64,000 nucleotides of DNA, from positions 608,001-672,000 of the forward strand of contig OZ252149.1 in the NCBI GenBank assembly GCA_965248755.1, in the 5' to 3' direction. This document shows, piece by piece, positions 5,728-18,640 of this stretch; positions within the stretch are counted from its first letter, which is position 1; each line of letters opens with the position of its first letter. Below the pieces are notes generated by a model. That model saw only the letters and a list, made by a program, of their open reading frames with translations. It did no database searches and was not told the DNA's origin. The position numbers and the translations under genes were made by a program. The stretch is from Candidatus Latescibacterota bacterium (lineage in GTDB: Bacteria > Latescibacterota > CBDEFO01).

Positions 5728-7515
<1,788 letters not shown>

Positions 7516-7538
7516 AGGGCAAACAGCGATCTTTCACA

Positions 7539-7565
7539 GTAGGGGCAAGGTAACCTCGCCCTTAC
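7539..7565 (+). repeat. GTAG-type REP-like palindrome
   Basis: gtaggggcaaggtaacctcgcccttac; relatives near 25020, 38343, 47242. Confidence 0.6.
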
Positions 7566-7675
7566 CAAAATTTAGATGCAAATCCAAAACTTGTCTGTGA
7601 TGCAGAACACACCGAAGACTGCAAGTGCAACTAAAATATCAAATTCTGTGAAAAGAGTCAACAACTAAATCACAA

Positions 7676-8869
7676 TTACTGCACCCTTTTACGCTCAACT
7701 TTCTTCCCGGTCACTTCTTTTTCTTTCCACTGGAACTTCATAAGATATCCGAGCAGACCGAAAAGGGCAATATATGGAACGTGCAGTATCTCCACAAGTG
7801 GGAAGTATCTCAAAAGTCCCTTTACCCGAAATAGCCTTGTCACCTTCCAAAGAACCACAAAATCTAGGCACGCCTTCATTCCGAAGGCGTAAAGCGGGGC
7901 CGGGTACTTTGCTGGATTTACAATTGAAAGGGGGAGCAGTAGAAAAAGCAAAAGATGAAAAAGATATACGATAACCCCCAGAGACAAGATCGAAGTTGAG
8001 TAATAAGCGGCTTTGGAGGAGTGTCTGAGCTTCTGATTGAAGAGAGTATAAGGGTCTCTGGGGGGCGGTCCACATGGAACGAAGCTCCCAGGTGAGAGGG
8101 AGTGTATTATCTTCCAATCCGTCTTCTCTCTTAAAAGACGCATAAATAATACGTCGTCTCCCGATATAATCTCCCCTATCTTGTCGAATCCGCCCGCCTC
8201 TATGAACGCCTCTTTTCTATATCCCAAATTCCGACCCGTGCAGGAGATGGGGACTCCTACGCCTATGCTCCCTGCGGACAAGGCGGCGATATAGAGGGAT
8301 TCTAATGCGACCATCTTCTGCACGAGCGTTTTTCCCTTGTCTAGGGGCGAAAACCCTGCCACGAGTCCGACTTCCGGCTCGAAATGCCCTACCATATCCC
8401 CTATCCACGAACAAGGGGGGCGACAGTCGGCGTCAGTTAAAAGAATGATCTCTCCCCTACTCGATTCGATCCCCAAGTTCAAAGCGTTCTTTTTGGGACA
8501 GGCGTATAGTGGCTCCCCAGTAACGTTCAACAGTCGGAAGTTGTAATATCTATCCTCAAAAGAGCTTGCTATCTGCTCTGTGTCGTCGCTGGATCTATCG
8601 TTTACCACCACCACCTCATACATATCGTCAGGATATTCCTGAAGCGCCAGAGCCGACAGACAAGCCTCGATGTTCTCCTCTTCGTTCCTGGCAGCCACGA
8701 TTACGGAGACCATAGACAGAGTGGTATTTCGCCCCTTTCTATTTCTGAATAACCCCAAAAAGATCGCGCCCACAACTACACAGTACAAAATGCCCAGGGC
8801 GATCAAGACGTTAGAGATAATTTCATAGATCAAGAATCTTTTTCTTCCTTGTCTTTGTGGGCGAGGCAA
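7676..8869 (-). CDS. Glycosyltransferase family 2, membrane-bound (start probably slightly downstream)
   Basis: VSVIVAARNEE, LLTDADC (DxD), ISGDDV, C-terminal TM helices. Confidence 0.92.
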   Translation of the reverse strand: MPRPQRQGRKRFLIYEIISNVLIALGILYCVVVGAIFLGLFRNRKGRNTTLSMVSVIVAARNEEENIEACLSALALQEYPDDMYEVVVVNDRSSDDTEQIASSFEDRYYNFRLLNVTGEPLYACPKKNALNLGIESSRGEIILLTDADCRPPCSWIGDMVGHFEPEVGLVAGFSPLDKGKTLVQKMVALESLYIAALSAGSIGVGVPISCTGRNLGYRKEAFIEAGGFDKIGEIISGDDVLFMRLLREKTDWKIIHSLSPGSFVPCGPPPRDPYTLFNQKLRHSSKAAYYSTSILSLGVIVYLFHLLLFLLLPLSIVNPAKYPAPLYAFGMKACLDFVVLWKVTRLFRVKGLLRYFPLVEILHVPYIALFGLLGYLMKFQWKEKEVTGKKVERKRVQ

Positions 8870-8887
8870 TCTCTTCCCAAAAAAGTT

Positions 8888-8950
8888 GGTGGGTCAGACA
8901 TTCCTGTCTGACATGGATACTTTGAGAACAGACAAGAATGTCCGTTCTAC
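8888..8950. repeat. REP-like doublet
   Basis: ggtgggtcagacattcctgtctgac plus agaacagacaagaatgtccgttctac; recurs at ~27351-27417, 35360-35425, 53830-53901. Confidence 0.75.
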
Positions 8951-9183
8951 TTTCGGTATTTTTGGTGTTCCAAGCCCCTACATTTCTGAATCAGTGTCAA
9001 GGTGAAAGATACCACATTTACAATTACAATTCAAGGGAAAAGTATTATTCTCCAGTGGGGACTGAGAGATTATTTGTTGACCTCCAGCAATTTCTTTTGT
9101 ATTTTCCTACGCAAGTACCTGACCAAAAAATCATGACATGCTGTGGTAAAGTTTTACCAACCCTAAAAAAGAGGAGGTTCAAA

Positions 9184-10631
9184 ATGCAACGTATAACCCT
9201 TTCTATTCTGATACTCCTGGTCGCTTTGAATACGACTGCCTCCGCACAAGTCCTGTTCGCAGCCAGGACCAACTATCTTGCTGGAAATGGTCCCACATCA
9301 GTTTCCAGTGCGGATTTCGATGGAGATGGAGATAATGACCTGGCTGTGGCTAATGAGTTCAGCAATAGTGTGTCAGTGTTGTTTAATAATGGAGATGGGA
9401 CATTTGCAGACTCTACCAGGGTGGACTATAGTCTTGGGTTTGATCCCACATCAGTTTTCAGTGCGGACATAGATAGTGATGGAGATAACGACTTAGCTGT
9501 GGCTAATGAGGGCAGCGATAATGTGTCAGTGCTGCTGAATAATGGAGATGGGACATTTGCACCCAGGGTGGACTACCCCGCAGGGGATGGTTCTCGCTCA
9601 GCGTTCAGTGCGGATTTCGATGGAGATGGAGACAATGACCTGGCTGTGGCTAATTTTAACAGCGATAATGTGTCAGTGTTATTGAATCTGTCTACCATGC
9701 CAGCTCCTCCTCCTGTAGACACAGCCTCAGTCAGCCTCCCGAACGTATCTACCTTGGTCGGCGATACAGTTTCAGTAGCTGTTGCTGTCCAGGAGGACGT
9801 GACAGGGCTTGGAATCTTCTCAGCCCAGATGAATATCAGTTATGATTCAGATCTAATAAAGGCAATAAATGTAGCGTTGGAAGGAACACTGACCCAGGGA
9901 TGGGTGATAGATGACACAGTTGTAACAGGCATCGGAACATCTATAGACACTGTCAAGATCGCAATAGCGACTCCGGGACCTGACACATTATCAGGGTCGG
10001 GAGATATAGTCCGTATCAAGTTTGCAGTCTCCGATTCGGCAGCCATAGGTGATTCCATACCATTAGTCTTTGAGGAATTCTTCTTCAACGAAGGCGATCC
10101 AGCGGCAAATGCACAGGACGGGTCTGTGCAAATTCTGGAATTAGGAGACATCAGCGGCAACGGAAGGGTGACGGCGTTCGATGCTTCTTTGGTGCTTAGA
10201 TCCACAGTAGGTCTCTTTGTAATCTCTGACACCCTGATAGCAGATGTCAGTGGAGACGGCACCATAAGCGCCTTTGATGCCTCCTTGATGCTCAGGTTCG
10301 TTGTCGGTAAAATAACTATATTTCCTGCCGAGACAGGAGGCACTCCTAAAATTGTGCTTGGCGAAAGGATTGTCAGTTTAGGTGATATAAAGACTTTGCC
10401 TGATGGCCGCTTTGTACTCCCTATTCTCATAGATGAAATGGACGGTGTCCTCTCAGGTCAATTTGAACTCTCCTTCAATCCGATCAAGCTAAAACCATTA
10501 GATGCTACGACATCCGATCTGACTTCTGATTATCTTTTCGTCCATAATGCTCAAGACGGCAGATTAAAGCTATCGTTTGCCGCAGCAGAATCGGTTGAAG
10601 GCAGCGGCAGGATCGCAGAGATTATATTTGA
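9184..10631 (+). pseudogene. 5' part of secreted FG-GAP/cohesin/dockerin/cohesin/CTD protein, interrupted by the IS1380 unit
   Basis: GAGGAGG RBS at 9171, MQRITLSIL signal peptide, 3 FG-GAP repeats, cohesin (SGSGDIVRIKF..FFFNEG), dockerin (GDISGNGRVTAFDA..ADVSGDGTISAFDA), second cohesin broken at ...RIAEIIF. Confidence 0.88.
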
Positions 10632-12257
10632 CCCCCATTCGCCATATTAGACCCGAAAAATGGTTGTCAAAGTCGCCAGAACATGTTATATTACAATAAA
10701 TAAGACTCATAAATGGCGGATAAATATTGATCATCCAGAGGGTGAAAGAATGAAAGTAGGTTTTGATGGAGGAATAAAGCTTGAATTTCATGGTGCAAAG
10801 GTGACATCAAACGGTGGACTTCTTGCGTATCGTGACCTTGATTACGCACTGGGATTATTTGATTCGGTATCAGCGGTTTTTACCGATAAACGCACAGGCC
10901 GTAATATCCAACATGATATATCTACTCTCCTGCGTCAATCGATATACAGCCGTCTTGCAGGATATGAAGATGTAAATGACGCCGAGCGATTATCCGTTGA
11001 TCCCGTCATGCGAGCGATTACCGGAAAGAAGGACAAAGGCAGGCAAGCTGCCAGCTCCAACACGATAGGACGTTTTGAAACTGATATACTGACTCAGCAT
11101 GACAATCTCAGAAACTTGTCAGATATCAATGGCAAGTGGGTTCAAAAAGCGATGAGTAAAACACAGCATCAACGAATCATTCTGGACATGGACAGTTCGG
11201 AGAGTCCGGTACATGGCCAGCAGGAAGGATCAGCTTACAACGGTCATTTCGGATGTACCTGTTTTCATCCAGTGTTCTGCTTCAATCAGTTCGGGGATTG
11301 TGAAGGAGTCCTACTTCGCTCTGGTAATGTTCACAGTGCTGATCGTTGGAAGGAAGTTCTGGAACCGATCGTCAAGAGATACGAGAGCAAGAAGAATAGG
11401 AAATACTTTCGAGGCGATGCTGCATTCGCAAAGCCTGAGATTTATGATTATCTGGAGGGAAACGGCTATTTGTATGCCATTCGGCTTCCCGCAAATGAGA
11501 TACTCTATGAAAAGATACGATACCTGCTGACTCGGCCAGTTGGACGACCGCCGAGGAAACCGATTGTATCGTTATATGAATTTCAATATAAAGCGGCCAG
11601 TTGGGATCAATCGAGGCGAGTGGTCGCCAAGGTTGAATGGCACCAAGGGGAGTTATTCCCAAGAGTGGGATTTATCGTGACCAACATGAGCGCCAAGCCA
11701 GAAGGCGTGGTACACTTCTACAATGGCCGTGGCAGAGCTGAGCAGTGGATTAAGGAGGGCAAGTATGCTCTGAACTGGACCCGACTCTCATGCAAGCGTT
11801 TCGTCTCCAATCAGGTGAGGCTCTGGCTGTTTGTTCTGGCTTACAACTTGGGCAACTTCCTGCGACGTTTTGTTCTTCCGAAGAAAATCAAACACTGGTC
11901 ACTACGCAGCCTCCTCGTGAAATTTATCAAAATCGGAGCGAAGATTGTCAGACACAGCGGATATATTACGTTTCAAATGGCTGAGGTTGGGATAGACAAG
12001 AGGTTATTTGCCGAAATATTATCCCGGATTGAACGATTGCGATGTTATTCTGTTTAAACTGCCACATTTTTTTGTGAGTCGATGGAGAGGTGTCTCTAAT
12101 TGGAGGATTTAAACACAAAGAAAGTGATAATTCAGAGGAAAATACTATTTTAATTGAAAAAAGTACTTGTTGAAAAATGTAAAAGTGGTAATATTAATTC
12201 AGAAACAAGAATGTATCGAAATATAATCCCTCATGAATGTGATATGGGGAATGTCGG
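10632..12257 (+). mobile_element. IS1380-family insertion sequence (1,626 bp)
   Basis: IRL cccccattcgccatatt versus reverse complement of IRR ccgacattccccatatc (13/17 identical), enclosing an IS1380 transposase. Confidence 0.9.
10660..12057 (+). CDS. IS1380-family transposase (true start probably ~10726-10750)
   Basis: LEFHGAKVTSNGGLL, AGYEDVNDA, ILDMDSSESPVHGQQEGSAYNGHF, RGDAAF, FYNGRGRAEQWIKEGK motifs. Confidence 0.95.
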   Translation: MVVKVARTCYITINKTHKWRINIDHPEGERMKVGFDGGIKLEFHGAKVTSNGGLLAYRDLDYALGLFDSVSAVFTDKRTGRNIQHDISTLLRQSIYSRLAGYEDVNDAERLSVDPVMRAITGKKDKGRQAASSNTIGRFETDILTQHDNLRNLSDINGKWVQKAMSKTQHQRIILDMDSSESPVHGQQEGSAYNGHFGCTCFHPVFCFNQFGDCEGVLLRSGNVHSADRWKEVLEPIVKRYESKKNRKYFRGDAAFAKPEIYDYLEGNGYLYAIRLPANEILYEKIRYLLTRPVGRPPRKPIVSLYEFQYKAASWDQSRRVVAKVEWHQGELFPRVGFIVTNMSAKPEGVVHFYNGRGRAEQWIKEGKYALNWTRLSCKRFVSNQVRLWLFVLAYNLGNFLRRFVLPKKIKHWSLRSLLVKFIKIGAKIVRHSGYITFQMAEVGIDKRLFAEILSRIERLRCYSV

Positions 12258-12261
12258 ACTA

Positions 12262-12738
12262 ATGGTTGAGGTAAAGATAGCCACTCTTCTTATCGATCAG
12301 ACAGGACACATTGTTTTGTTGAAGGAGTTGAGCGGGGATCGAGTCCTTCCTATATGGATAGGTGAGGCGGAGGCAAGGGCTATAGCTGGGGAGGTCCAGG
12401 ATCAGAAGTACAAGCGTCCCTTATCTCACGACCTGCTGGAGATGCTCCTTGACACTTTAGAGGCAAAGGTAATTAAGGTGGAAGTGTCCAATCTTGTAGA
12501 CAGTACCTACTACGCTCAACTCTATCTTCAAAGGGAAAATAGGATTGTAAAGGTGGATGCCCGTCCAAGCGATTCCATAATTATGGCTTTAAAAACTCAC
12601 GCTCCAATATTTGTTGCCGGGGAGCTTCTAGAACGAGTTGAGGGTATCCAGATAGAAGATATAGAGGAAAGTGGAGAAAGTCTGAAGGACAGAGTACAGA
12701 GGATTAATCCTGAAGATTTTGGGAATTTTAAGCTGTGA
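12262..12738 (+). CDS. Bifunctional nuclease (BFN/DUF151) family protein
   Basis: VLPIWIGEAEARAIA, RPLSHDLL, VDARPSDSI; ATG 12262 (the longer ORF call extends into the IS). Confidence 0.9.
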   Translation: MVEVKIATLLIDQTGHIVLLKELSGDRVLPIWIGEAEARAIAGEVQDQKYKRPLSHDLLEMLLDTLEAKVIKVEVSNLVDSTYYAQLYLQRENRIVKVDARPSDSIIMALKTHAPIFVAGELLERVEGIQIEDIEESGESLKDRVQRINPEDFGNFKL

Positions 12739-14597
12739 TGCCAGTCAGAGAATATAGAATATTTCTGCTATTTGCAGTGGTTCTCTATTTTGCCACAGAG
12801 GCTTTCGGAGAATCGGAAGATAAAGAGACGCGCCTTTTCGATCAAGAGGCTGAGGACGTCTTCCAAAGAGGAATAGAAAGGTATGTGAAGGGACACTTTC
12901 AAAGAGCGCGGCTCGAATTTCAGGAGGTATTAGAGAAATTCCCCATCAATCAGAAGTCATCCGCAGCAAAGTTGATGTTAGCCAAGACGGTCTACAAGCT
13001 GAGCGACTACGAACTGGCGATCTCTGTCGCCGAGGAATTGAAAAGTGAGTTCCCGTCGAGCAGGTACCTCTGGGACGCCGATTATGCGGCAGGCGATTCT
13101 TATTTTCGTCAGGGAAGGTTCGTCGAGGCTGTGTTCAAATACGCGCTTGTCCTGGTGGGGACACAGGAGACAGACTTAAAGTTGAAAGCAGCTGAGCGTC
13201 TGTCGGTCGTGGCATTGACAAATCTGTCCAAATCCGAAATCGAGGACATAAAAGAGAAGTTCGATCCAGGAGTTGTGGAGGAAGGACTTCTTTTAGGCGA
13301 AGCAAGATGGATTTTCAGGTGGGGCTATTCTCATCTGGCGGCTGAGAAGGTGGACAGCTACATTAGGAACTTCCCAGACGGTCTATTCTTGAATGAGGCG
13401 ATAGCTTTAAGGGAGGAGATAGAGGTGGGAGTGCAAGTAAGCTATCGTACAAGCTGGTCATCGGATAAGATAGGTGTCATCTGTCCACTTTCCGGCGAGG
13501 GAAGAATCTACGGCGAGGATCTAAGAGACGGGGCAAAGTTAGCCTTGGAACACTCCTCGCTTTCCCGTAGGGGGGCAATCGAATTAATAGTTGAAAATTC
13601 AAGAAGCGATCCGATAACTGCGGTGAAGGTGGTCCAGAAGTTGATAGAAAAGGACAGAGTCCTTGCTATAGTCGGACCTCTTTACAGTTCTACGACTATA
13701 GGGGCAGCAGCGGTGGCAAACTCCGAATCGGTTCCACTGATCGCTCCTACCGCTTCAGAGGGCCCGATAGCCTCAATTGGACCTTACGTGTTTCAGATCA
13801 ACTCAACTCCAGAGGTTCAAGGAAAGAGGATGGCCGAATACGCTGTGGGGACACTGAACCTGGAGACGTTTGCCCTAATCGCCTCTATGGATATGTACGG
13901 ACAGGAGATGTCCAGAAGTTTCAGATCGAGGGTGGAGGAATTGGGGGGAAGAGTCCTGCAGGAGGAGAGATATTTTCCGGGCACAAAGGATTTCAAAGAG
14001 CAATTACAGAGGATAAGGAACGCTGGGCTCTTGCTCCAGGATATACTATTGGCAGCGGATACCTCAAGGGTGGACACTACCGCTTTTGAGGAGGACCTCC
14101 CCGAGGAAGAGGAATTACAGCCTGTGGGGACTATTGACGGCGTTCTGATAGCGGGCGCTTCTGATGATGTGATATTGATAGCCCCTCAGATAGCTTTGAA
14201 GAGGATCGAGACCCAACTTTTGGGAGGAAGCCAGTGGAATTCTCAGAACATAATCAGAATGAGCGGGAGCTACGTGGAGGGAGCCCTATTCGTATCCGGG
14301 TATTTTGAAGATTTAGGATCACCGGCGATCAATCGGTTTATAAGTTCGTTCAGACGTAAATTTGGAAGGTCGCCCTCAACGGCAGCCGCTTTCGGCTACG
14401 ACGCTATGTCGCTGGTGCTGAGAGAACTAAGTATAGGTCACAGGACCAGGGAAAATTTGAAGAATACTCTTCAAAAGGTAAGGGACTTTGAGGGGGTTTC
14501 AGGGAGGATCTCATTCGGAAGCCAGAGCCATCAGAACGAGAACGTCTATCTTTTGAAGATAGATAAAAAGAGGATAGTTTCGCTCGGAAAACTCTGA
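12735..14597 (+). CDS. TPR + periplasmic-binding (LppC/LpoA-like) exported protein
   Basis: Signal peptide, TPRs, then KIGVICPLSG, AIVGPLYS, AAFGYDA, FEGVSGRISF type-I PBP motifs. Confidence 0.8.
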   Translation: MMPVREYRIFLLFAVVLYFATEAFGESEDKETRLFDQEAEDVFQRGIERYVKGHFQRARLEFQEVLEKFPINQKSSAAKLMLAKTVYKLSDYELAISVAEELKSEFPSSRYLWDADYAAGDSYFRQGRFVEAVFKYALVLVGTQETDLKLKAAERLSVVALTNLSKSEIEDIKEKFDPGVVEEGLLLGEARWIFRWGYSHLAAEKVDSYIRNFPDGLFLNEAIALREEIEVGVQVSYRTSWSSDKIGVICPLSGEGRIYGEDLRDGAKLALEHSSLSRRGAIELIVENSRSDPITAVKVVQKLIEKDRVLAIVGPLYSSTTIGAAAVANSESVPLIAPTASEGPIASIGPYVFQINSTPEVQGKRMAEYAVGTLNLETFALIASMDMYGQEMSRSFRSRVEELGGRVLQEERYFPGTKDFKEQLQRIRNAGLLLQDILLAADTSRVDTTAFEEDLPEEEELQPVGTIDGVLIAGASDDVILIAPQIALKRIETQLLGGSQWNSQNIIRMSGSYVEGALFVSGYFEDLGSPAINRFISSFRRKFGRSPSTAAAFGYDAMSLVLRELSIGHRTRENLKNTLQKVRDFEGVSGRISFGSQSHQNENVYLLKIDKKRIVSLGKL

Positions 14598-14729
14598 TTG
14601 ATATTGCTTACTTTTGGTCATTGCAAGAGAGATGAAATCCCCCGACGCAATTTCAACGGCGATTTTGAAAATCGTCGTTGTGTATGGCGGAAGGTATCAA
14701 GATCTATTTGTAGGAGAAGGAATTAAGCC

Positions 14730-15491
14730 GTGAGACTTCAAGATAAAGTTGCGATTGTTACTGGGGGAGCGTCGGGGATAGGTCGGGGGACAGCCCTCTT
14801 GATGGCAGGGGAGGGAGCAAAGGTCATAGTTGCAGACGTGGATGAGGAGGGCGCAAGAGAGACGGTTTCTATGATTGAATCGAAAGAGGGAAAGGGCGTC
14901 TCCTGTTACGCCGATGTGGGGACTGCAAAGGGAGTTGAAGAGATGATAGGAGTGGCTGTGGATAGTTACGGGAAGATAGACGTTTTGCACAACAACGCCT
15001 ACTGGCATTCCGGAGGGACGGCGATGACTATCTCTGAGGAGGATTGGGATCATACGCTGGACGTCTGTCTCAAGGCTGTATACATGGGATGTAAGCTTGC
15101 AATCCCCCAGATGCTGAAGACGGGTGGAGGAGCTGTCGTTAACACGGCATCTATTCACAGTCTTGTCTCCTTTCATAAGTATGCTGCGTACGATGCCGCA
15201 AAAGCCGGTGTCATAGGACTTACACGCTCTTTGGCACTGGATTTTGGACCCCAGATCCGGGCGAACGCAGTGCTCCCGGGGGCTATTCTGACTGCTGCCT
15301 GGAGTGGGATTGATCAAGAAGAGATGGACCACTGGGCCCGGATGACCCCAATGAAGCGTATGGGGCAGCCTGAGGATATAGCTAAGGCTGTGATATTCTT
15401 AGCTTCTGATGACGCCTCGTTTATTACGGGGACAAGTCTGGTAGTTGACGGTGGATGGACTATTGTGGGTCATCCCAGGACAGATGAATAA
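14730..15491 (+). CDS. Short-chain dehydrogenase/reductase
   Basis: TGGASGIG, NNA, YDAAK (YxxxK), ITGTSLVVDGG. Confidence 0.95.
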   Translation: MRLQDKVAIVTGGASGIGRGTALLMAGEGAKVIVADVDEEGARETVSMIESKEGKGVSCYADVGTAKGVEEMIGVAVDSYGKIDVLHNNAYWHSGGTAMTISEEDWDHTLDVCLKAVYMGCKLAIPQMLKTGGGAVVNTASIHSLVSFHKYAAYDAAKAGVIGLTRSLALDFGPQIRANAVLPGAILTAAWSGIDQEEMDHWARMTPMKRMGQPEDIAKAVIFLASDDASFITGTSLVVDGGWTIVGHPRTDE

Positions 15492-15551
15492 CGCGTTTTA
15501 GATCAAGTGACCGAACTGGATAAAGGGCCGGATAGTTCAGAGTTTCTGATT

Positions 15552-15584
15552 GAGGGGTTTCTTAACTGAACCCCTCTCCTTTTT
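15552..15584 (+). terminator. Putative intrinsic terminator after the SDR
   Basis: gaggggtt...aacccctc stem followed by tcctttt. Confidence 0.55.
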
Positions 15585-15783
15585 ATCGCTTTACATTGAC
15601 AGCCAACCTAAACTATGCTAATTTTAGGATATGTGAAGTGCCTCCCAAAAGAGTAGACAACACCTCTGGGGAAGAGTCGGGATGCTGTCTAGCCACGATT
15701 GAACCCCTGATCCCCGATTGAGTCTATCGGGGATTCATATTGTGGGTTGGGGGATAGTATTTACTTATTTAGGGACATTAAGA

Positions 15784-16872
15784 ATGCAGATCAAGATAGA
15801 TAGACATAAACTGATTATGGGCATCGGGAGCAATGCGGTGGACGTAATCTACAGGGTGCGCAGGATCGCGGGCAAAGATGAAAAGACGTATATCCTCCCT
15901 AACAATGAAGGGAATATGGTAAAGGAGGTCGCAGGGGGAGTTGTACTGAATCATCTTGCATGGGCCAGGCTCTTGGGCGTCCGTACGGGTCTCTTTGGAT
16001 TTCAGGGGGACGATAGATTCGGAAAGTTCATAAGGGGTACTATGGACGTTCATGGGATCGAAAGGAGTTACGTCAAGGTTAAGGAGGGAAAATCGTCCAC
16101 TTTTGCGATCATAAACGTGGATACCCATGCGGAAAGGGCCATATACATGGCGTCGGCTCTGACGGGGACCACGACATCTGAGGACATAAAAAGGGAGTTC
16201 TCGGAGTGCATTTCGAACGCCGGGATGGTGACAACTGAGATCTCACAGCTCCCGTTAGATGCTGTTGTAGCTGTGCTGAGTATAGCCAAGGAAAGTGATG
16301 TTCCGACGGTTTTAGATGTGGACGTTCCCCCGAGTTTCGCTGTGGATTTGGCTGGCTTGGGAAGTAGAAAGGAGTTTGAAAAAGCTCTTTCTCTGGCTGA
16401 TCTTATCAAGCCTGCCAAGGCCGTTGCGGACCAGATAGTAGGGGGCGATACATCTGAGGATAAGGCGAGGGACATATTCCAGAAGTACAGCCCCAGGTTA
16501 GTAGCTGTTACGGACGGCGCAGAAGGGAGCGTTCTCTATGATGGGGGCTCTATCGTGAGGGTAAAGTCCAACAGTGTAGTTGCGAGAGATACGACAGGAG
16601 CAGGAGACGCTTTCCTGGGGGGCGTGATTGCCGGGATATATTATGGCTTGTCTTTAGAGGATATAGGAAAGCTTGCAAATGCGTGCGGGGCTGCGTGCTG
16701 TACTGTGGCTGGCGCGTTTCCCGTTATGGACAGTAGTCTGGAGTATGTAGGATCTCTCTACGATAGAGGGAGAGTAGATGCCCTTGAAGGTATATTGATA
16801 GGCCAGAGTGAAGGAGCGAACGATTGCACTTCCGTAGGCATAGAAACTGTGAGGAACCAGATAGATCATTAG
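15784..16872 (+). CDS. PfkB-family carbohydrate kinase (probably the N-terminal part of a former PfkB-SIS fusion)
   Basis: GDDRFG, VTDGAEG, DTTGAGDAFLGG signature. Confidence 0.88.
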   Translation: MQIKIDRHKLIMGIGSNAVDVIYRVRRIAGKDEKTYILPNNEGNMVKEVAGGVVLNHLAWARLLGVRTGLFGFQGDDRFGKFIRGTMDVHGIERSYVKVKEGKSSTFAIINVDTHAERAIYMASALTGTTTSEDIKREFSECISNAGMVTTEISQLPLDAVVAVLSIAKESDVPTVLDVDVPPSFAVDLAGLGSRKEFEKALSLADLIKPAKAVADQIVGGDTSEDKARDIFQKYSPRLVAVTDGAEGSVLYDGGSIVRVKSNSVVARDTTGAGDAFLGGVIAGIYYGLSLEDIGKLANACGAACCTVAGAFPVMDSSLEYVGSLYDRGRVDALEGILIGQSEGANDCTSVGIETVRNQIDH

Positions 16873-17437
16873 GGGCTCTCTATTTAGGGATGGGGGGGAT
16901 TATAATCGCGAAGCTATGGGGTTGATAAGAAACGTTCAGAGTAAGGGAGGCCGTATTTACGTGACGGTTTTGTGTAAACCGAGACTTTTAGCCGAGAAGA
17001 TCGCCCCTGCGTTGCAGAGTGTGGGAACTCCCGCCTATTTTCTCGACCCCGTTGACGTAAATCACGGTGAGAGCGATTAACTCAACGAAGGGGATGTGGT
17101 TATAGCTATCTTTCAGGGTGATGCCAAAAGGGAACTGTTGGATGGCATCAGGACGATCAAGCATAAATGAGCTTATGATATAGGGATTACGTTGTAGGGA
17201 TTACTTAAGGAATACAAATCTGAGCTTGCGAAGTTGAGCAATGTCCTTCTGCCTGTCCCAGCGCAGAAAGAGGCGATATCTTTTGAGTTGACACCTACTC
17301 CAAGCACAACGTGCCAACTCGTCCTTGAAGATTGCCTTGCAATGTCTTTAAATGACGCCAAGGAATTCACAAAGCAGGATTTCCACAAGTGCTATCCAGG
17401 TGGAAGTCTGGGAAAGATTCTGGACGACAGTGCGTGA
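16873..17437 (+). pseudogene. Degraded KpsF/GutQ-like SIS sugar-phosphate isomerase domain
   Basis: One frame reads GGRIYVTVLCKPRLLAEKIAPALQSVGTPAYFLDPVDVNHGESD*LNEGDVVIAI...HK*...TL*...SELAKLS...LTPTPSTT..DCLAMSL...FTKQDFHKCYPGGSLGK, with 3 internal stops. Confidence 0.8.
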
Positions 17438-17464
17438 TTATTGTGAATTAAATTCGATAAACTT

Positions 17465-17991
17465 TTGGGAGGAAAATTGGCTAAGTTAATCGCTTTTGAT
17501 CTGGACGATACTGCTTTAGCAGTGGACAGGGGATTCTCCGAAGATGGAATAAAAGTTTTAGAGGAAGCTCTCCAAAGAGGTATTCTAATAGCTTCTGTGA
17601 GCGGGAGAAATGTGGACAGGAGCAGCAGTCCTTTCAACGATAAGCTTCAATTGTTTGAGAGAATATATATTGTTTCCTACAACGGGGCTGTCGTCCTGGA
17701 ACCTGTGGATAGGAACGCAAGGGAGTTGATTTATGTGCAGAGGATGACGGAAGATAAGATGCTCGATCTTACAGATTATGTCCGGGACAATGGCTATGAT
17801 CTTGTCTATTATCAGTTTGAGATGGACGGAAACGGCCGGATGGATGAAAAACTTATAGTCCTTCGTCCTTCCCCATCTACGAGAATACTCGAGACCCAGA
17901 CAGGGGCAACGTACGAGTTTGATGAGGGTCTTACAGATAGGATAATGAATAAAAAACTAGGGCCTCCTCCCAAAATGATGGTGCTTCCGGG
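17465..17991 (+). pseudogene. Cof-type HAD hydrolase, 3'-truncated at the unit's right end
   Basis: LIAFDLDDT, SVSGR, YNGA; the C-terminal GDxxND motif is missing. Confidence 0.82.
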
Positions 17992-17996
17992 TTTGA

Positions 17997-18381
17997 GCCT
18001 GTAGGTGAGACTATTAGTGGAATTGATATAGTCTCCGCTCAATTTAACGAAGGTCTCTTCAGTGTGGTTATATCCCAATTTGAAGGCATTTCCAAAGCCC
18101 CGGACAGCTTTTCATTGCATCAGAACTATCCGAATCCGTTCAACCCTGAGACTGTTATCCATTACGATCTTCCTATTCATAGCCACGTTGATATATCTGT
18201 CTATAATATAGCGGGGCAAAAGATTGCAACATTGGTAGACAAGGAGATGGACTTAGGCAGTCACTCCATAATCTGGGATGGAAAAAATAATAAAGGAGAA
18301 GGTCTTGCCAGCGGAGTGTATTTCTATCGGATGGAGACGGACAGATTTGTGCAGACAAGAAAGCTGATCTTGATGCGATAA
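17997..18381 (+). pseudogene. 3' part of the split cohesin/dockerin gene (end of cohesin + T9SS/FlgD-type CTD)
   Basis: (F)EPVGETISGIDIVSAQFNEG...FSLHQNYPNPFNPET...WDGKN..LASGVYFYRM..TRKLILMR*; no convincing start of its own. Confidence 0.88.
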
Positions 18382-18427
18382 GCTGTTTAGTCCTGTTTCG
18401 CAAAAGTCCACGGAATCTCGAACACCA

Positions 18428-18455
18428 AGCCCGTCAGCAATGGCGGGCTATTTCT
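18428..18455 (+). terminator. Intrinsic terminator
   Basis: agcccgtca-gcaa-tggcgggct hairpin followed by atttctt. Confidence 0.7.
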
Positions 18456-18640
18456 TGCTTCATTTATAAGACTACCCCTGTAAAAAGAGTATTTTAATTG
18501 ACAGTAAAGCGCAGGTGTTGTAAACTCATGTTTGATCTGCTAATATTTTATGAAACTATTCCTACACCCAGACATCTTTTGAACAGTGAACGATCTATCC
18601 AAAAAGCAGGGGCGAGGTCGGGGCGTCCCACTATAACTCT

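What the first reader, a model, noticed from the sequence alone, without database searches (positions are those of the whole stretch)
10627..17996. 7.36-kb IS1380 one-ended transposition unit carrying five captured chromosomal genes
Seen: (1) the IS1380 (10632-12257) has no duplication at its own right end, but TTTGA flanks its left end (10627-10631) and recurs at 17992-17996. (2) Just inside that second TTTGA the minus strand reads cccggaagcaccat, 9/14 identical to the IRL cccccattcgccat and keeping the CC..A..C.CCAT core shared with the true IRR. (3) The HAD gene is cut exactly there. (4) Removing 10632-17996 restores ...RIAEIIF-EPVGETISGIDIVSAQFNEG... in frame, a 610-aa ORF ending at a terminator. 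Known: ISEcp1 and IS1247 of this family mobilise adjacent DNA using degenerate right ends and short AT-rich duplications, mostly documented for resistance genes. Inference: the same mechanism moved ~5.7 kb of ordinary genes (BFN, TPR-PBP, SDR, PfkB-SIS, HAD') here. The cargo carries host-type repeats (14617, 15712), pointing to a donor in the same or a related genome.
Basis: partly seen in the sequence, partly recalled or inferred. Interest (0 to 1): 0.9.

Follow-up and report, generated by a model that had tools for sequence, protein, structure and literature searches.

The report
IS1380 element that copied neighbouring genes
A jumping gene of the IS1380 family copied itself together with 5.7 kb of neighbouring ordinary genes into a surface-protein gene, a known gene-capture trick that this genome shows unusually often and unusually clearly.

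Summary
The observation and the reading both hold. Window 10632-17991 is one 7,360-bp unit. It is a 1,626-bp IS1380-family insertion sequence plus 5,734 bp of right-flank DNA, bracketed by TTTGA at 10627-10631 and 17992-17996.

- **Donor:** the same genome holds an IS copy with its own ACTAA duplication beside the same genes, and there the HAD gene runs on to 293 aa.
- **Relative:** a same-genus genome (G001) has the target gene uninterrupted with a single TTTGA. It has the cargo cluster once, without the IS, in the donor's context.
- **Direction:** both points fix the move from donor to window.

The event is not isolated. Of 47 near-identical IS copies, 24 carry 58-5,734 bp of donor flank ending exactly at a repeat of their left-flank 5-mer. 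Seventeen have a direct duplication and 6 are unresolved. The surrogate right ends share a weak motif: C at positions 1-3, G5, A6 (15 of 16) and T7.

The mechanism is the known ISEcp1 / ISPme1 "transposable module" type, so this is a new member of a known kind. The scan already noted similar IS1380 units in at least 7 other genomes. The added value here is the genome-wide census and the retained donors.

The parts
9184..10631 (+). 5' part (482 aa plus 2 bases) of the interrupted target gene: signal peptide, FG-GAP repeats, cohesin and dockerin domains
   Evidence: Pfam PF13517, PF00963, PF00404. Contiguous with 17997-18381 in paralogues and in the G001 orthologue.
10627..10631 (.). Left copy of the 5-bp target-site duplication TTTGA
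   Evidence: Present once in the G001 empty site.
10632..12257 (+). IS1380-family insertion sequence, 1,626 bp. IRL is 10632-10645 and IRR is 12244-12257 (11 of 14 alike). The transposase ORF is 10660-12057, with a likely real start at ATG 10750.
   Evidence: NF033539 385.5 bits against a cut-off of 180. PF13701 428.5 bits. 47 full-length copies at >=99.94% identity.
12198..12227 (+). Outward-facing promoter-like site 30 bp inside the IS right end (TTCAGA-18-TATAAT). This is a lead only.
   Evidence: 10 of 12 consensus match, 4 sites found against 1.4 expected in shuffles.
12258..17991 (+). Cargo: 5,734 bp copied from the donor locus
   Evidence: 100% identical to genome 4539579-4533846 and 99.9% to 6051-317. 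These two are the same locus, because the contig ends overlap.
12262..12738 (+). Bifunctional-nuclease-domain gene. Its ATG lies 5 bp after the IS end.
   Evidence: PF02577, E 1.3e-35
12735..14597 (+). TPR plus periplasmic-binding-protein gene
   Evidence: PF13458 E 8.8e-54; TPR/YfiO at the N-terminus
14730..15491 (+). Short-chain dehydrogenase/reductase gene
   Evidence: PF13561 E 9.2e-66
15718..16872 (+). PfkB-family sugar kinase gene
   Evidence: PF00294 E 4.8e-42. No SIS domain found.
17465..18004 (+). Truncated HAD (Cof-type) hydrolase gene: 176 native residues, then 3 foreign codons and a stop read from the target
   Evidence: PF08282 matches profile positions 1-102 of 255 only. The donor copy is 293 aa.
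17978..17991 (-). Surrogate right end (cccggaagcaccat on the minus strand)
   Evidence: 9 of 14 to IRL. Homology to the donor ends exactly here. An X2 contig stops exactly at 17991.
17992..17996 (.). Right copy of the target-site duplication TTTGA
17997..18381 (+). 3' part of the target gene (1 base plus 127 aa): T9SS C-terminal sorting domain
   Evidence: TIGR04183 E 6.4e-11; PF18962
18428..18449 (+). Terminator-like hairpin with a T-run after the target gene

Best explanation
An IS1380-family insertion sequence sat immediately upstream of the BFN gene at the donor locus, which lies at the contig origin. Its transposase used the normal left end (IRL) together with a weakly similar sequence 5,734 bp downstream, inside the HAD gene, instead of the element's own right end (IRR).

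The whole 7,360-bp segment was copied into a T9SS-secreted FG-GAP/cohesin/dockerin gene. The insertion duplicated the 5-bp target TTTGA. The donor copy stayed in place.

Shown here:
- the unit boundaries, the target-site duplication (TSD), the donor, the empty site and the direction of the move;
- recurrence of the same pattern in 24 of 47 copies.

Inferred:
- the transposase recognises the surrogate end by sequence;
- the pathway is replicative or otherwise keeps the donor.
For: **This unit**
- The TSD and IS limits are as stated.
- The transposase is IS1380 family: NF033539 385.5 bits against a cut-off of 180.
- The cargo is identical to the donor flank over 5,734 of 5,734 bp. The donor IS has its own direct ACTAA duplication, and the donor sequence continues as an intact 293-aa HAD gene where the window switches to TTTGA plus the target gene.
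- G001 has the uninterrupted target gene with one TTTGA.
- G001 has the cargo cluster once, at 95% identity, with no IS. It is contiguous with both donor flanks, and the two matches overlap by 5 bp at the donor IS site.
- The joined 610-aa protein aligns across the junction to 6 paralogues at 65-72% identity.
- X4 contig record 24 covers 16717-18600 with 0 differences, so it spans the right junction.

**Genome-wide**
- All 23 units listed have the left-flank 5-mer exactly at the point where homology to a sister or donor flank ends. A 24th unit was resolved.
- Chance per exact match is about 1 in 1,024.
- Among 16 distinct surrogate ends, position 6 is A in 15 (binomial p 1.5e-8), position 7 is T in 12, position 5 is G in 10, and positions 1-3 are C in 9 each.
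- The mean match to the 13 IRL/IRR-shared positions is 5.2, against a genome background of 3.25.
- The 39 five-bp TSDs are 77% A+T, against 51% for the genome.
Against: - The surrogate end is a poor match to the true ends, and 76 of 5,714 upstream positions match as well. Sequence likeness alone does not explain why this site was used.
- The donor IS copy differs from the window IS copy at IS position 121 (C against G). At least 7 donor-daughter relations in the genome are discordant at one of two polymorphic IS sites. This needs gene conversion among copies, or errors in polishing repeats, and neither was tested.
- The left junction is covered by a public contig only 28 nt into the IS, below the tool's 31-nt criterion. 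The runs may also be the assembly's own source.
- No transposition was observed experimentally.
- Detecting a unit requires a surviving sister copy. The count of retained donors is therefore biased, and the 6 unresolved copies could be conservative events.
Confidence: 0.96

Rival explanations
1. The IS lacks a direct duplication because homologous recombination between two of the 47 identical copies swapped its right flank. On this reading the second TTTGA is coincidence.
For: There are 47 near-identical copies. Six of them have no recognisable duplication and could be recombinants.
Against: - Recombination would not duplicate 5,734 bp.
- It would not end the duplicated block exactly at a repeat of the left-flank 5-mer, nor restore the target frame.
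- The G001 empty site has one TTTGA exactly there.
- The same geometry recurs in 23 other copies.
Confidence: 0.01
2. The structure is an assembly artefact: IS or cargo repeats were mis-joined in a long-read assembly whose ends overlap at 99.9% identity.
For: The contig start (1-7206) repeats the contig end at 99.9% identity with indels, so polishing is imperfect. IS alleles are discordant between donors and daughters.
Against: - A mis-join would not create a precise 5-bp duplication and an in-frame target.
- X4 contig record 24 spans the right junction with 0 differences.
- An X2 contig breaks exactly at 17991, as expected if the cargo has two contexts.
Confidence: 0.01
3. The IS and cargo did move together, but the right end was set by something other than transposase recognition of an IR-like sequence. 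Candidates are replication run-off or random breakage followed by repair.
For: Surrogate ends match the true ends poorly (3 to 8 of 13 shared positions), and many better-scoring sites upstream were skipped.
Against: - The ends are followed by exact 5-bp duplications in 24 of 24 units.
- Fixed positions are shared: A6 in 15 of 16, T7 in 12 of 16, G5 in 10 of 16.
- One surrogate end (+186 bp) was used 8 times.
Confidence: 0.02
4. The direction is reversed: the window locus is the original and the contig-origin locus is the copy.
For: None beyond the symmetry of a two-copy duplication.
Against: - The origin IS has a direct ACTAA duplication and an intact HAD gene.
- G001 has the cluster only in the origin context and an uninterrupted gene at the window site.
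Confidence: 0.005

Closest known systems
ISEcp1 (ISEc9) transposition units, IS1380 family, Enterobacterales
   Same: - DDE transposase of the IS1380 family.
- About 14-bp imperfect terminal repeats.
- 5-bp target duplication.
- The IRL is used with an imperfect downstream IRR, giving units of variable size.
- Genes can be gained or lost at each move.

These features are as described in passages of PMC12589106.
   Different: - The transposase is only 25.5% identical over 87% of its length.
- The cargo is ordinary chromosomal genes, not resistance genes.
- All events are intrachromosomal.
- The host is an environmental bacterium that uses the type IX secretion system.
Transposable modules (TMos) of ISPme1 and IS1247a, IS1380 family, Paracoccus
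   Same: - A single IS1380-family copy mobilises adjacent 3' DNA segments of various lengths.
- The downstream regions used resemble the IR.
- The donor appears to be retained; hybridisation suggests a replicative pathway for ISPme1.

Source: passages of PMC3281130 and PMC9330008.
   Different: - Those modules were captured experimentally on trap plasmids. Here donors, daughters and granddaughters are all read from one chromosome.
- The identity of this transposase to ISPme1 was not measured.
IS1380 element of Sphingobium herbicidovorans MH
   Same: An IS1380 element and its adjacent ordinary genes (yfcG, gstB, partial rutE) are present in four identical copies in a chromosome. Source: one passage of PMC5737581.
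   Different: That case is a one-sentence observation without donor, empty-site or surrogate-end analysis. The scale here is 24 units with 17 distinct surrogate ends.

Membership tests
IS1380-family insertion sequence | Transposase matches the family model above its curated cut-off | tested here: met
   NF033539 385.5 bits (cut-off 180), profile positions 1-417 of 419. PF13701 428.5 bits.
IS1380-family insertion sequence | Short imperfect terminal inverted repeats and a short fixed-length target duplication | tested here: met
   IRL and IRR agree at 11 of 14 positions, and at 13 of the first 16. 15 of 47 copies have a direct 5-bp duplication, one has 6 bp and one has 4 bp.
ISEcp1-type one-ended transposition unit / transposable module | The target duplication brackets IRL plus a downstream surrogate end, not the IS's own IRR | tested here: met
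   TTTGA lies at 10627-10631 and 17992-17996, while the IRR flank is ACTAA.
ISEcp1-type one-ended transposition unit / transposable module | The cargo is the DNA that adjoins the IS right end at a donor site | tested here: met
   5,734 of 5,734 bp are identical to the flank of the donor copy, which has a direct ACTAA duplication. The donor context is conserved in G001 without the IS.
ISEcp1-type one-ended transposition unit / transposable module | An empty target site exists with one copy of the duplicated 5-mer | tested here: met
   The G001 orthologue reads through with a single TTTGA, in one HSP of 1,698 columns at 89.6%.
ISEcp1-type one-ended transposition unit / transposable module | The surrogate end resembles the true inverted repeats | tested here: inconclusive
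   For this unit the match is 9 of 14 to IRL, but 76 of 5,714 upstream positions score as well. Across 16 distinct ends there is a significant shared motif: A6 in 15 of 16, T7 in 12 of 16.
ISEcp1-type one-ended transposition unit / transposable module | An outward promoter in the IS right end drives the captured genes | tested here: inconclusive
   There is a sigma-70-like site at 12198-12227 (10 of 12 consensus). The host's promoter type is unknown and no expression data were examined.
ISEcp1-type one-ended transposition unit / transposable module | Mobilisation demonstrated experimentally | not testable with these tools
   This needs a trap-plasmid or mating-out assay.

The most novel reading that the evidence does not exclude
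This distant IS1380 relative uses a surrogate right end in most of its recent moves: 24 of the 41 resolved copies. That makes it an engine of segmental duplication in the chromosome.

Because donors, daughters and granddaughters all survive in one genome, the genome is a natural experiment. It suggests two things:
- The minimal right-end signal is a terminal C-rich triplet plus G-A-T at positions 5-7.
- The pathway keeps the donor. [quoted passage not shown]
Probability: 0.5. Interest if true: 0.55.

Novelty: new member of a known kind. Interest (0 to 1): 0.45.

Why it matters
One-ended capture by IS1380-family elements is best known for spreading resistance genes. Here a relative only 25% identical to ISEcp1 does the same with ordinary metabolic genes inside one chromosome of an environmental bacterium.

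- **Gene content:** it duplicated four intact genes and inactivated a surface-protein gene.
- **Rule for the surrogate end:** the 24 units with 17 distinct surrogate ends form a ready-made data set for the rule that defines such an end.
- **Fate of the donor:** the same units bear on whether the donor site is kept.
- **Annotation:** the case shows annotators that a 'missing' target duplication at an IS1380 copy is often a distal one.

Tried and rejected
- **SIS domain:** sought in the PfkB ORF and in the two open frames of 16865-17437.
- **Repeat near 14617:** only 5 genomic hits, so it is not an abundant host repeat.
- **Empty allele in public runs:** no joint 10631->17997 was listed for X2, X4, X6 or X1. 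These are contigs, so this says nothing about rare alleles.
- **Left junction in public runs:** the best X2 contig reaches only 28 nt into the IS, below the 31-nt criterion, so it is not counted as bridging.
- **Depth:** not used as a copy number, because the tool warns against it.
- **Unresolved copies:** six copies (834366, 3849774, 1273302, 2980387, 3781275, 3959959) were checked for reciprocal flank swaps between copies, by eye from the flank 5-mers printed. No left-flank 5-mer matched another copy's right flank, and they stay unexplained.
- **First search for repeats** with blastn-short and a target cap under-counted. It was repeated properly.
- **Literature:** searches found no genome-wide census of chromosomal IS1380 one-ended units. 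Only listings were seen for most hits, and passages for PMC5737581, PMC4133298, PMC3281130, PMC12589106 and PMC9330008.
- **Not seen:** Bartosik et al. 2008 (J Bacteriol) and Poirel/Lartigue on ISEcp1 were not read. They are cited only through those passages.
Full report
**What is in the window**

The 1,626 bp at 10632-12257 are an insertion sequence (IS).
- Its 465-aa ORF scores 385.5 bits on NCBIfam NF033539, "IS1380 family transposase" (cut-off 180), and 428.5 bits on Pfam PF13701.
- Its ends are imperfect inverted repeats. IRL is cccccattcgccat, and the IRR read inwards is ccgacattccccat. They agree at 11 of 14 positions.
- TTTGA precedes the IRL at 10627-10631. The IRR is followed by ACTAA, so the element has no direct duplication.
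- TTTGA recurs at 17992-17996. The 14 bases just before it read cccggaagcaccat on the minus strand, 9 of 14 like the IRL.

**The interrupted gene**

Joining 9184-10631 to 17997-18381 in a script gives a 610-aa open frame.
- The N-terminal part carries FG-GAP repeats, a cohesin domain and a dockerin domain.
- The C-terminal 127 aa carry a type IX secretion sorting domain (TIGR04183, PF18962).
- The joined protein aligns in single HSPs that cross the junction (residue 483) to 6 paralogues in the same genome at 65-72% identity. An example is residues 99-610 at 65.5%. It also aligns to many more distant paralogues.
- A terminator-like hairpin follows at 18428-18449.

**The cargo**

Pfam supports the following genes:
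- a bifunctional-nuclease-domain gene (12262-12738);
- a TPR plus periplasmic-binding-protein gene (12735-14597);
- an SDR gene (14730-15491);
- a PfkB kinase gene (15718-16872);
- the first 176 residues of a Cof-type HAD hydrolase (from 17465).

The 590 bp between PfkB and HAD hold two open frames with no Pfam match at E<=0.1.

**The donor**

The window is G000:C1:608001-672000 of a 4.54-Mb single contig. The cargo (12258-17991) occurs again at 4539579-4533846 (100%, 5,734 of 5,734 bp) and at 6051-317 (99.9%). These two are one locus, because the contig start (1-7206) repeats the contig end (4533530-4540735) at 99.9% identity. The assembly is a circle with overlapping ends.
- At that locus the same IS (6052-7677, minus strand) adjoins the cargo and has its own direct 5-bp duplication, ACTAA.
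- Beyond the point where the window switches to TTTGA plus the target gene, the donor reads on as HAD coding sequence. This gives a 293-aa protein, against 176 shared residues plus 3 foreign codons in the window.

**The outgroup**

One genome of the same genus but another species (G001) was found among 30 relatives searched.
- Its orthologue of the target gene aligns to the joined model in one HSP of 1,698 columns at 89.6%. It reads ...GATTATATTTGAGCCT... with a single TTTGA, which is the empty site. A 9-nt in-frame insertion lies a few codons further on.
- G001 holds the cargo cluster once, at 95% identity.
- That copy is contiguous on one side with the sequence left of the donor IS (G000 7678-9004, 97.6%). 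The two matches overlap by 5 bp at the site of the donor IS, which is not present in G001.
- On the other side it is contiguous with the DNA downstream of HAD, as far as G000 4532303.
- The donor context is therefore ancestral and the window copy is derived.
- G001 has a different 1.5-kb repeated element inserted after pfkB. It has only diverged (86% or less) or fragmentary relatives of this IS. The expansion in G000 is therefore recent.

**Public runs**

Four runs were laid, all as contigs. Two are from one sample that may be the assembly's source.
- X4 record 24 (3,454 bp) covers 16717-18600 without a difference, so it bridges the right junction.
- X2 record 15 stops exactly at 17991. A de Bruijn graph does this where a two-context repeat ends.
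- X2 record 10 covers 10233-10659, only 28 nt into the IS, so I do not count it as bridging the left junction.
- No contig joined 10631 to 17997.

**The same thing happens all over this genome**

BLAST of the IS gave 63 HSPs, of which 47 are full-length copies at >=99.94% identity and 16 are partial. The 47 copies divide as follows.

| Class | Copies |
|---|---|
| Direct 5-bp duplication | 15 |
| Direct 6-bp duplication (1056420) | 1 |
| Direct 4-bp duplication (3750308) | 1 |
| One-ended unit with distal duplication | 24 |
| Unresolved | 6 |

- The 24 units share their right flank with another copy. Each has its own left-flank 5-mer exactly where that shared homology ends. The check passed for all 23 listed, and 3746991 was resolved.
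- Cargo lengths are 58, 98, 186 (8 copies), 274, 321, 398, 966, 1,177, 1,243, 1,428, 2,301, 2,632, 2,780, 4,662, 4,788, 5,520 and 5,734 bp.
- Six donors with direct duplications account for 20 of the daughters.
- Two units are second-generation. Copy 3741749 carries the +186 segment plus 88 bp of the locus where copy 889340 sits. Copy 3008331 carries +186 plus 991 bp of the 2334675 locus.
- The 2,780-bp cargo of 3746991 contains a nested IS insertion.
- The six unresolved copies are 834366, 3849774, 1273302, 2980387, 3781275 and 3959959.

**The surrogate ends**

Statistics are for 16 distinct ends; the 17th, from 3746991, was not included.
- Position 6 is A in 15 (binomial p 1.5e-8 against base composition).
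- Position 7 is T in 12, position 5 is G in 10, and positions 1-3 are C in 9 each.
- The true ends read CC(C/G)(C/A)CATT.
- Ends match 3 to 8 of the 13 positions shared by IRL and IRR, with a mean of 5.2. The background from 200,000 random genomic sites is 3.25.
- Likeness is therefore real but weak, and many equally good sites were passed over.
- The 39 five-bp duplications are 77% A+T, and position 2 is T in 33 of 39. The genome is 51% A+T.

**Mechanism**

The anatomy is that of ISEcp1 transposition units and of the "transposable modules" made by ISPme1 and IS1247a. The transposase pairs the IRL with a downstream sequence that resembles an end, so the IS and variable lengths of 3' flank move as one unit with a 5-bp duplication. 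This description rests on passages of PMC12589106, PMC3281130 and PMC9330008.

The review PMC9330008 states that the pathway is unknown and that the fate of the ISEcp1 donor site has not been studied. Here every detectable unit still has its donor. This fits a replicative or donor-restoring pathway, but detection needs a surviving sister copy, so the count is biased.

A sigma-70-like site faces outward at 12198-12227. This would parallel the outward promoters of ISEcp1 and ISPme1. It is only a consensus match.

**A loose end**

The 47 copies fall into three alleles:

| Allele | Copies |
|---|---|
| Reference | 32 |
| C at IS position 121 | 10 |
| T at IS position 854 | 5 |

- The donor of the window unit carries 121C, while the window copy carries 121G. 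At least 7 donor-daughter relations are discordant in this way.
- Position 121 is the third base of the ATG at 10750. By the profile alignments this is the likely true start of the transposase, because the family models begin at ORF residues 35-40.
- Gene conversion among copies or mis-polishing of repeats could explain the discordance. I could not test either.
- The cargo itself is 100% identical, so the loose end does not touch the boundaries, the duplication, the donor or the empty site.

**Comparison and novelty**

- The transposase is 25.5% identical to that of ISEcp1 over 87% of its length. Its best plasmid-borne relative is at 56%. This is a distant branch of the family with the same habit.
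- Capture of non-resistance genes by IS1380 elements is in print for Paracoccus (PMC3281130, passages) and is mentioned in one sentence for Sphingobium (PMC5737581, passage).
- This scan has 8 earlier notes on such units, in at least 7 other genomes.
- Four literature searches turned up no genome-wide census of the kind made here.
- I file it as a new member of a known kind. It is a very clean case, with an unusually rich set of sister events.

Noticed in passing
window 10752 (IS position 121); genome-wide IS copies: The 47 IS copies carry three alleles: 32 reference, 10 with C at position 121, and 5 with T at position 854. Position 121 is the G of the ATG at 10750, the likely true transposase start, so the 10 copies read ATC there. 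Donor and daughter copies are discordant for these alleles in at least 7 relations, including the window unit.
   Followed up: partly
G000:C1:2701227-2718160: Two different one-ended units (+186 bp and +4,662 bp, from different donor families) sit at the same CTGAC site in two copies of another 1,267-bp repeated element. That element has about 47 identical copies in the genome. This suggests a target hot spot, in a genome heavily loaded with a second IS.
   Followed up: partly
window ~15709-15735: A 24-nt palindromic repeat (tccccgattgagtctatcggggat) lies just upstream of the PfkB gene. It has 157 hits in the genome and many in G001.
   Followed up: partly
G000:C1:1-7206 and 4533530-4540735: The single contig's two ends overlap by 7.2 kb at 99.9% identity with a few indels. 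The circle was not trimmed, and the ends are imperfectly polished.
   Followed up: yes
window 12244-12264 and the donor locus: At the donor, the IS sits between the BFN gene's Shine-Dalgarno-like GGGAGG and its ATG, with the ACTAA duplication. In both copies the first cargo gene has therefore lost its native upstream region and lies 5 bp from the IS end.
   Followed up: no
window 16873-17464: There are 590 bp between the PfkB and HAD genes. They hold two open frames of 71 and 79 codons in different phases with no Pfam match. This may be a decayed gene. G001 has a 1.5-kb repeated element inserted at about the start of this stretch.
   Followed up: partly
window 9184-10631 plus 17997-18381; genome-wide: The interrupted gene belongs to a very large paralogous family of FG-GAP / cohesin / dockerin / T9SS-tail proteins. 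tblastn gave about 200 HSPs across the genome.
   Followed up: no
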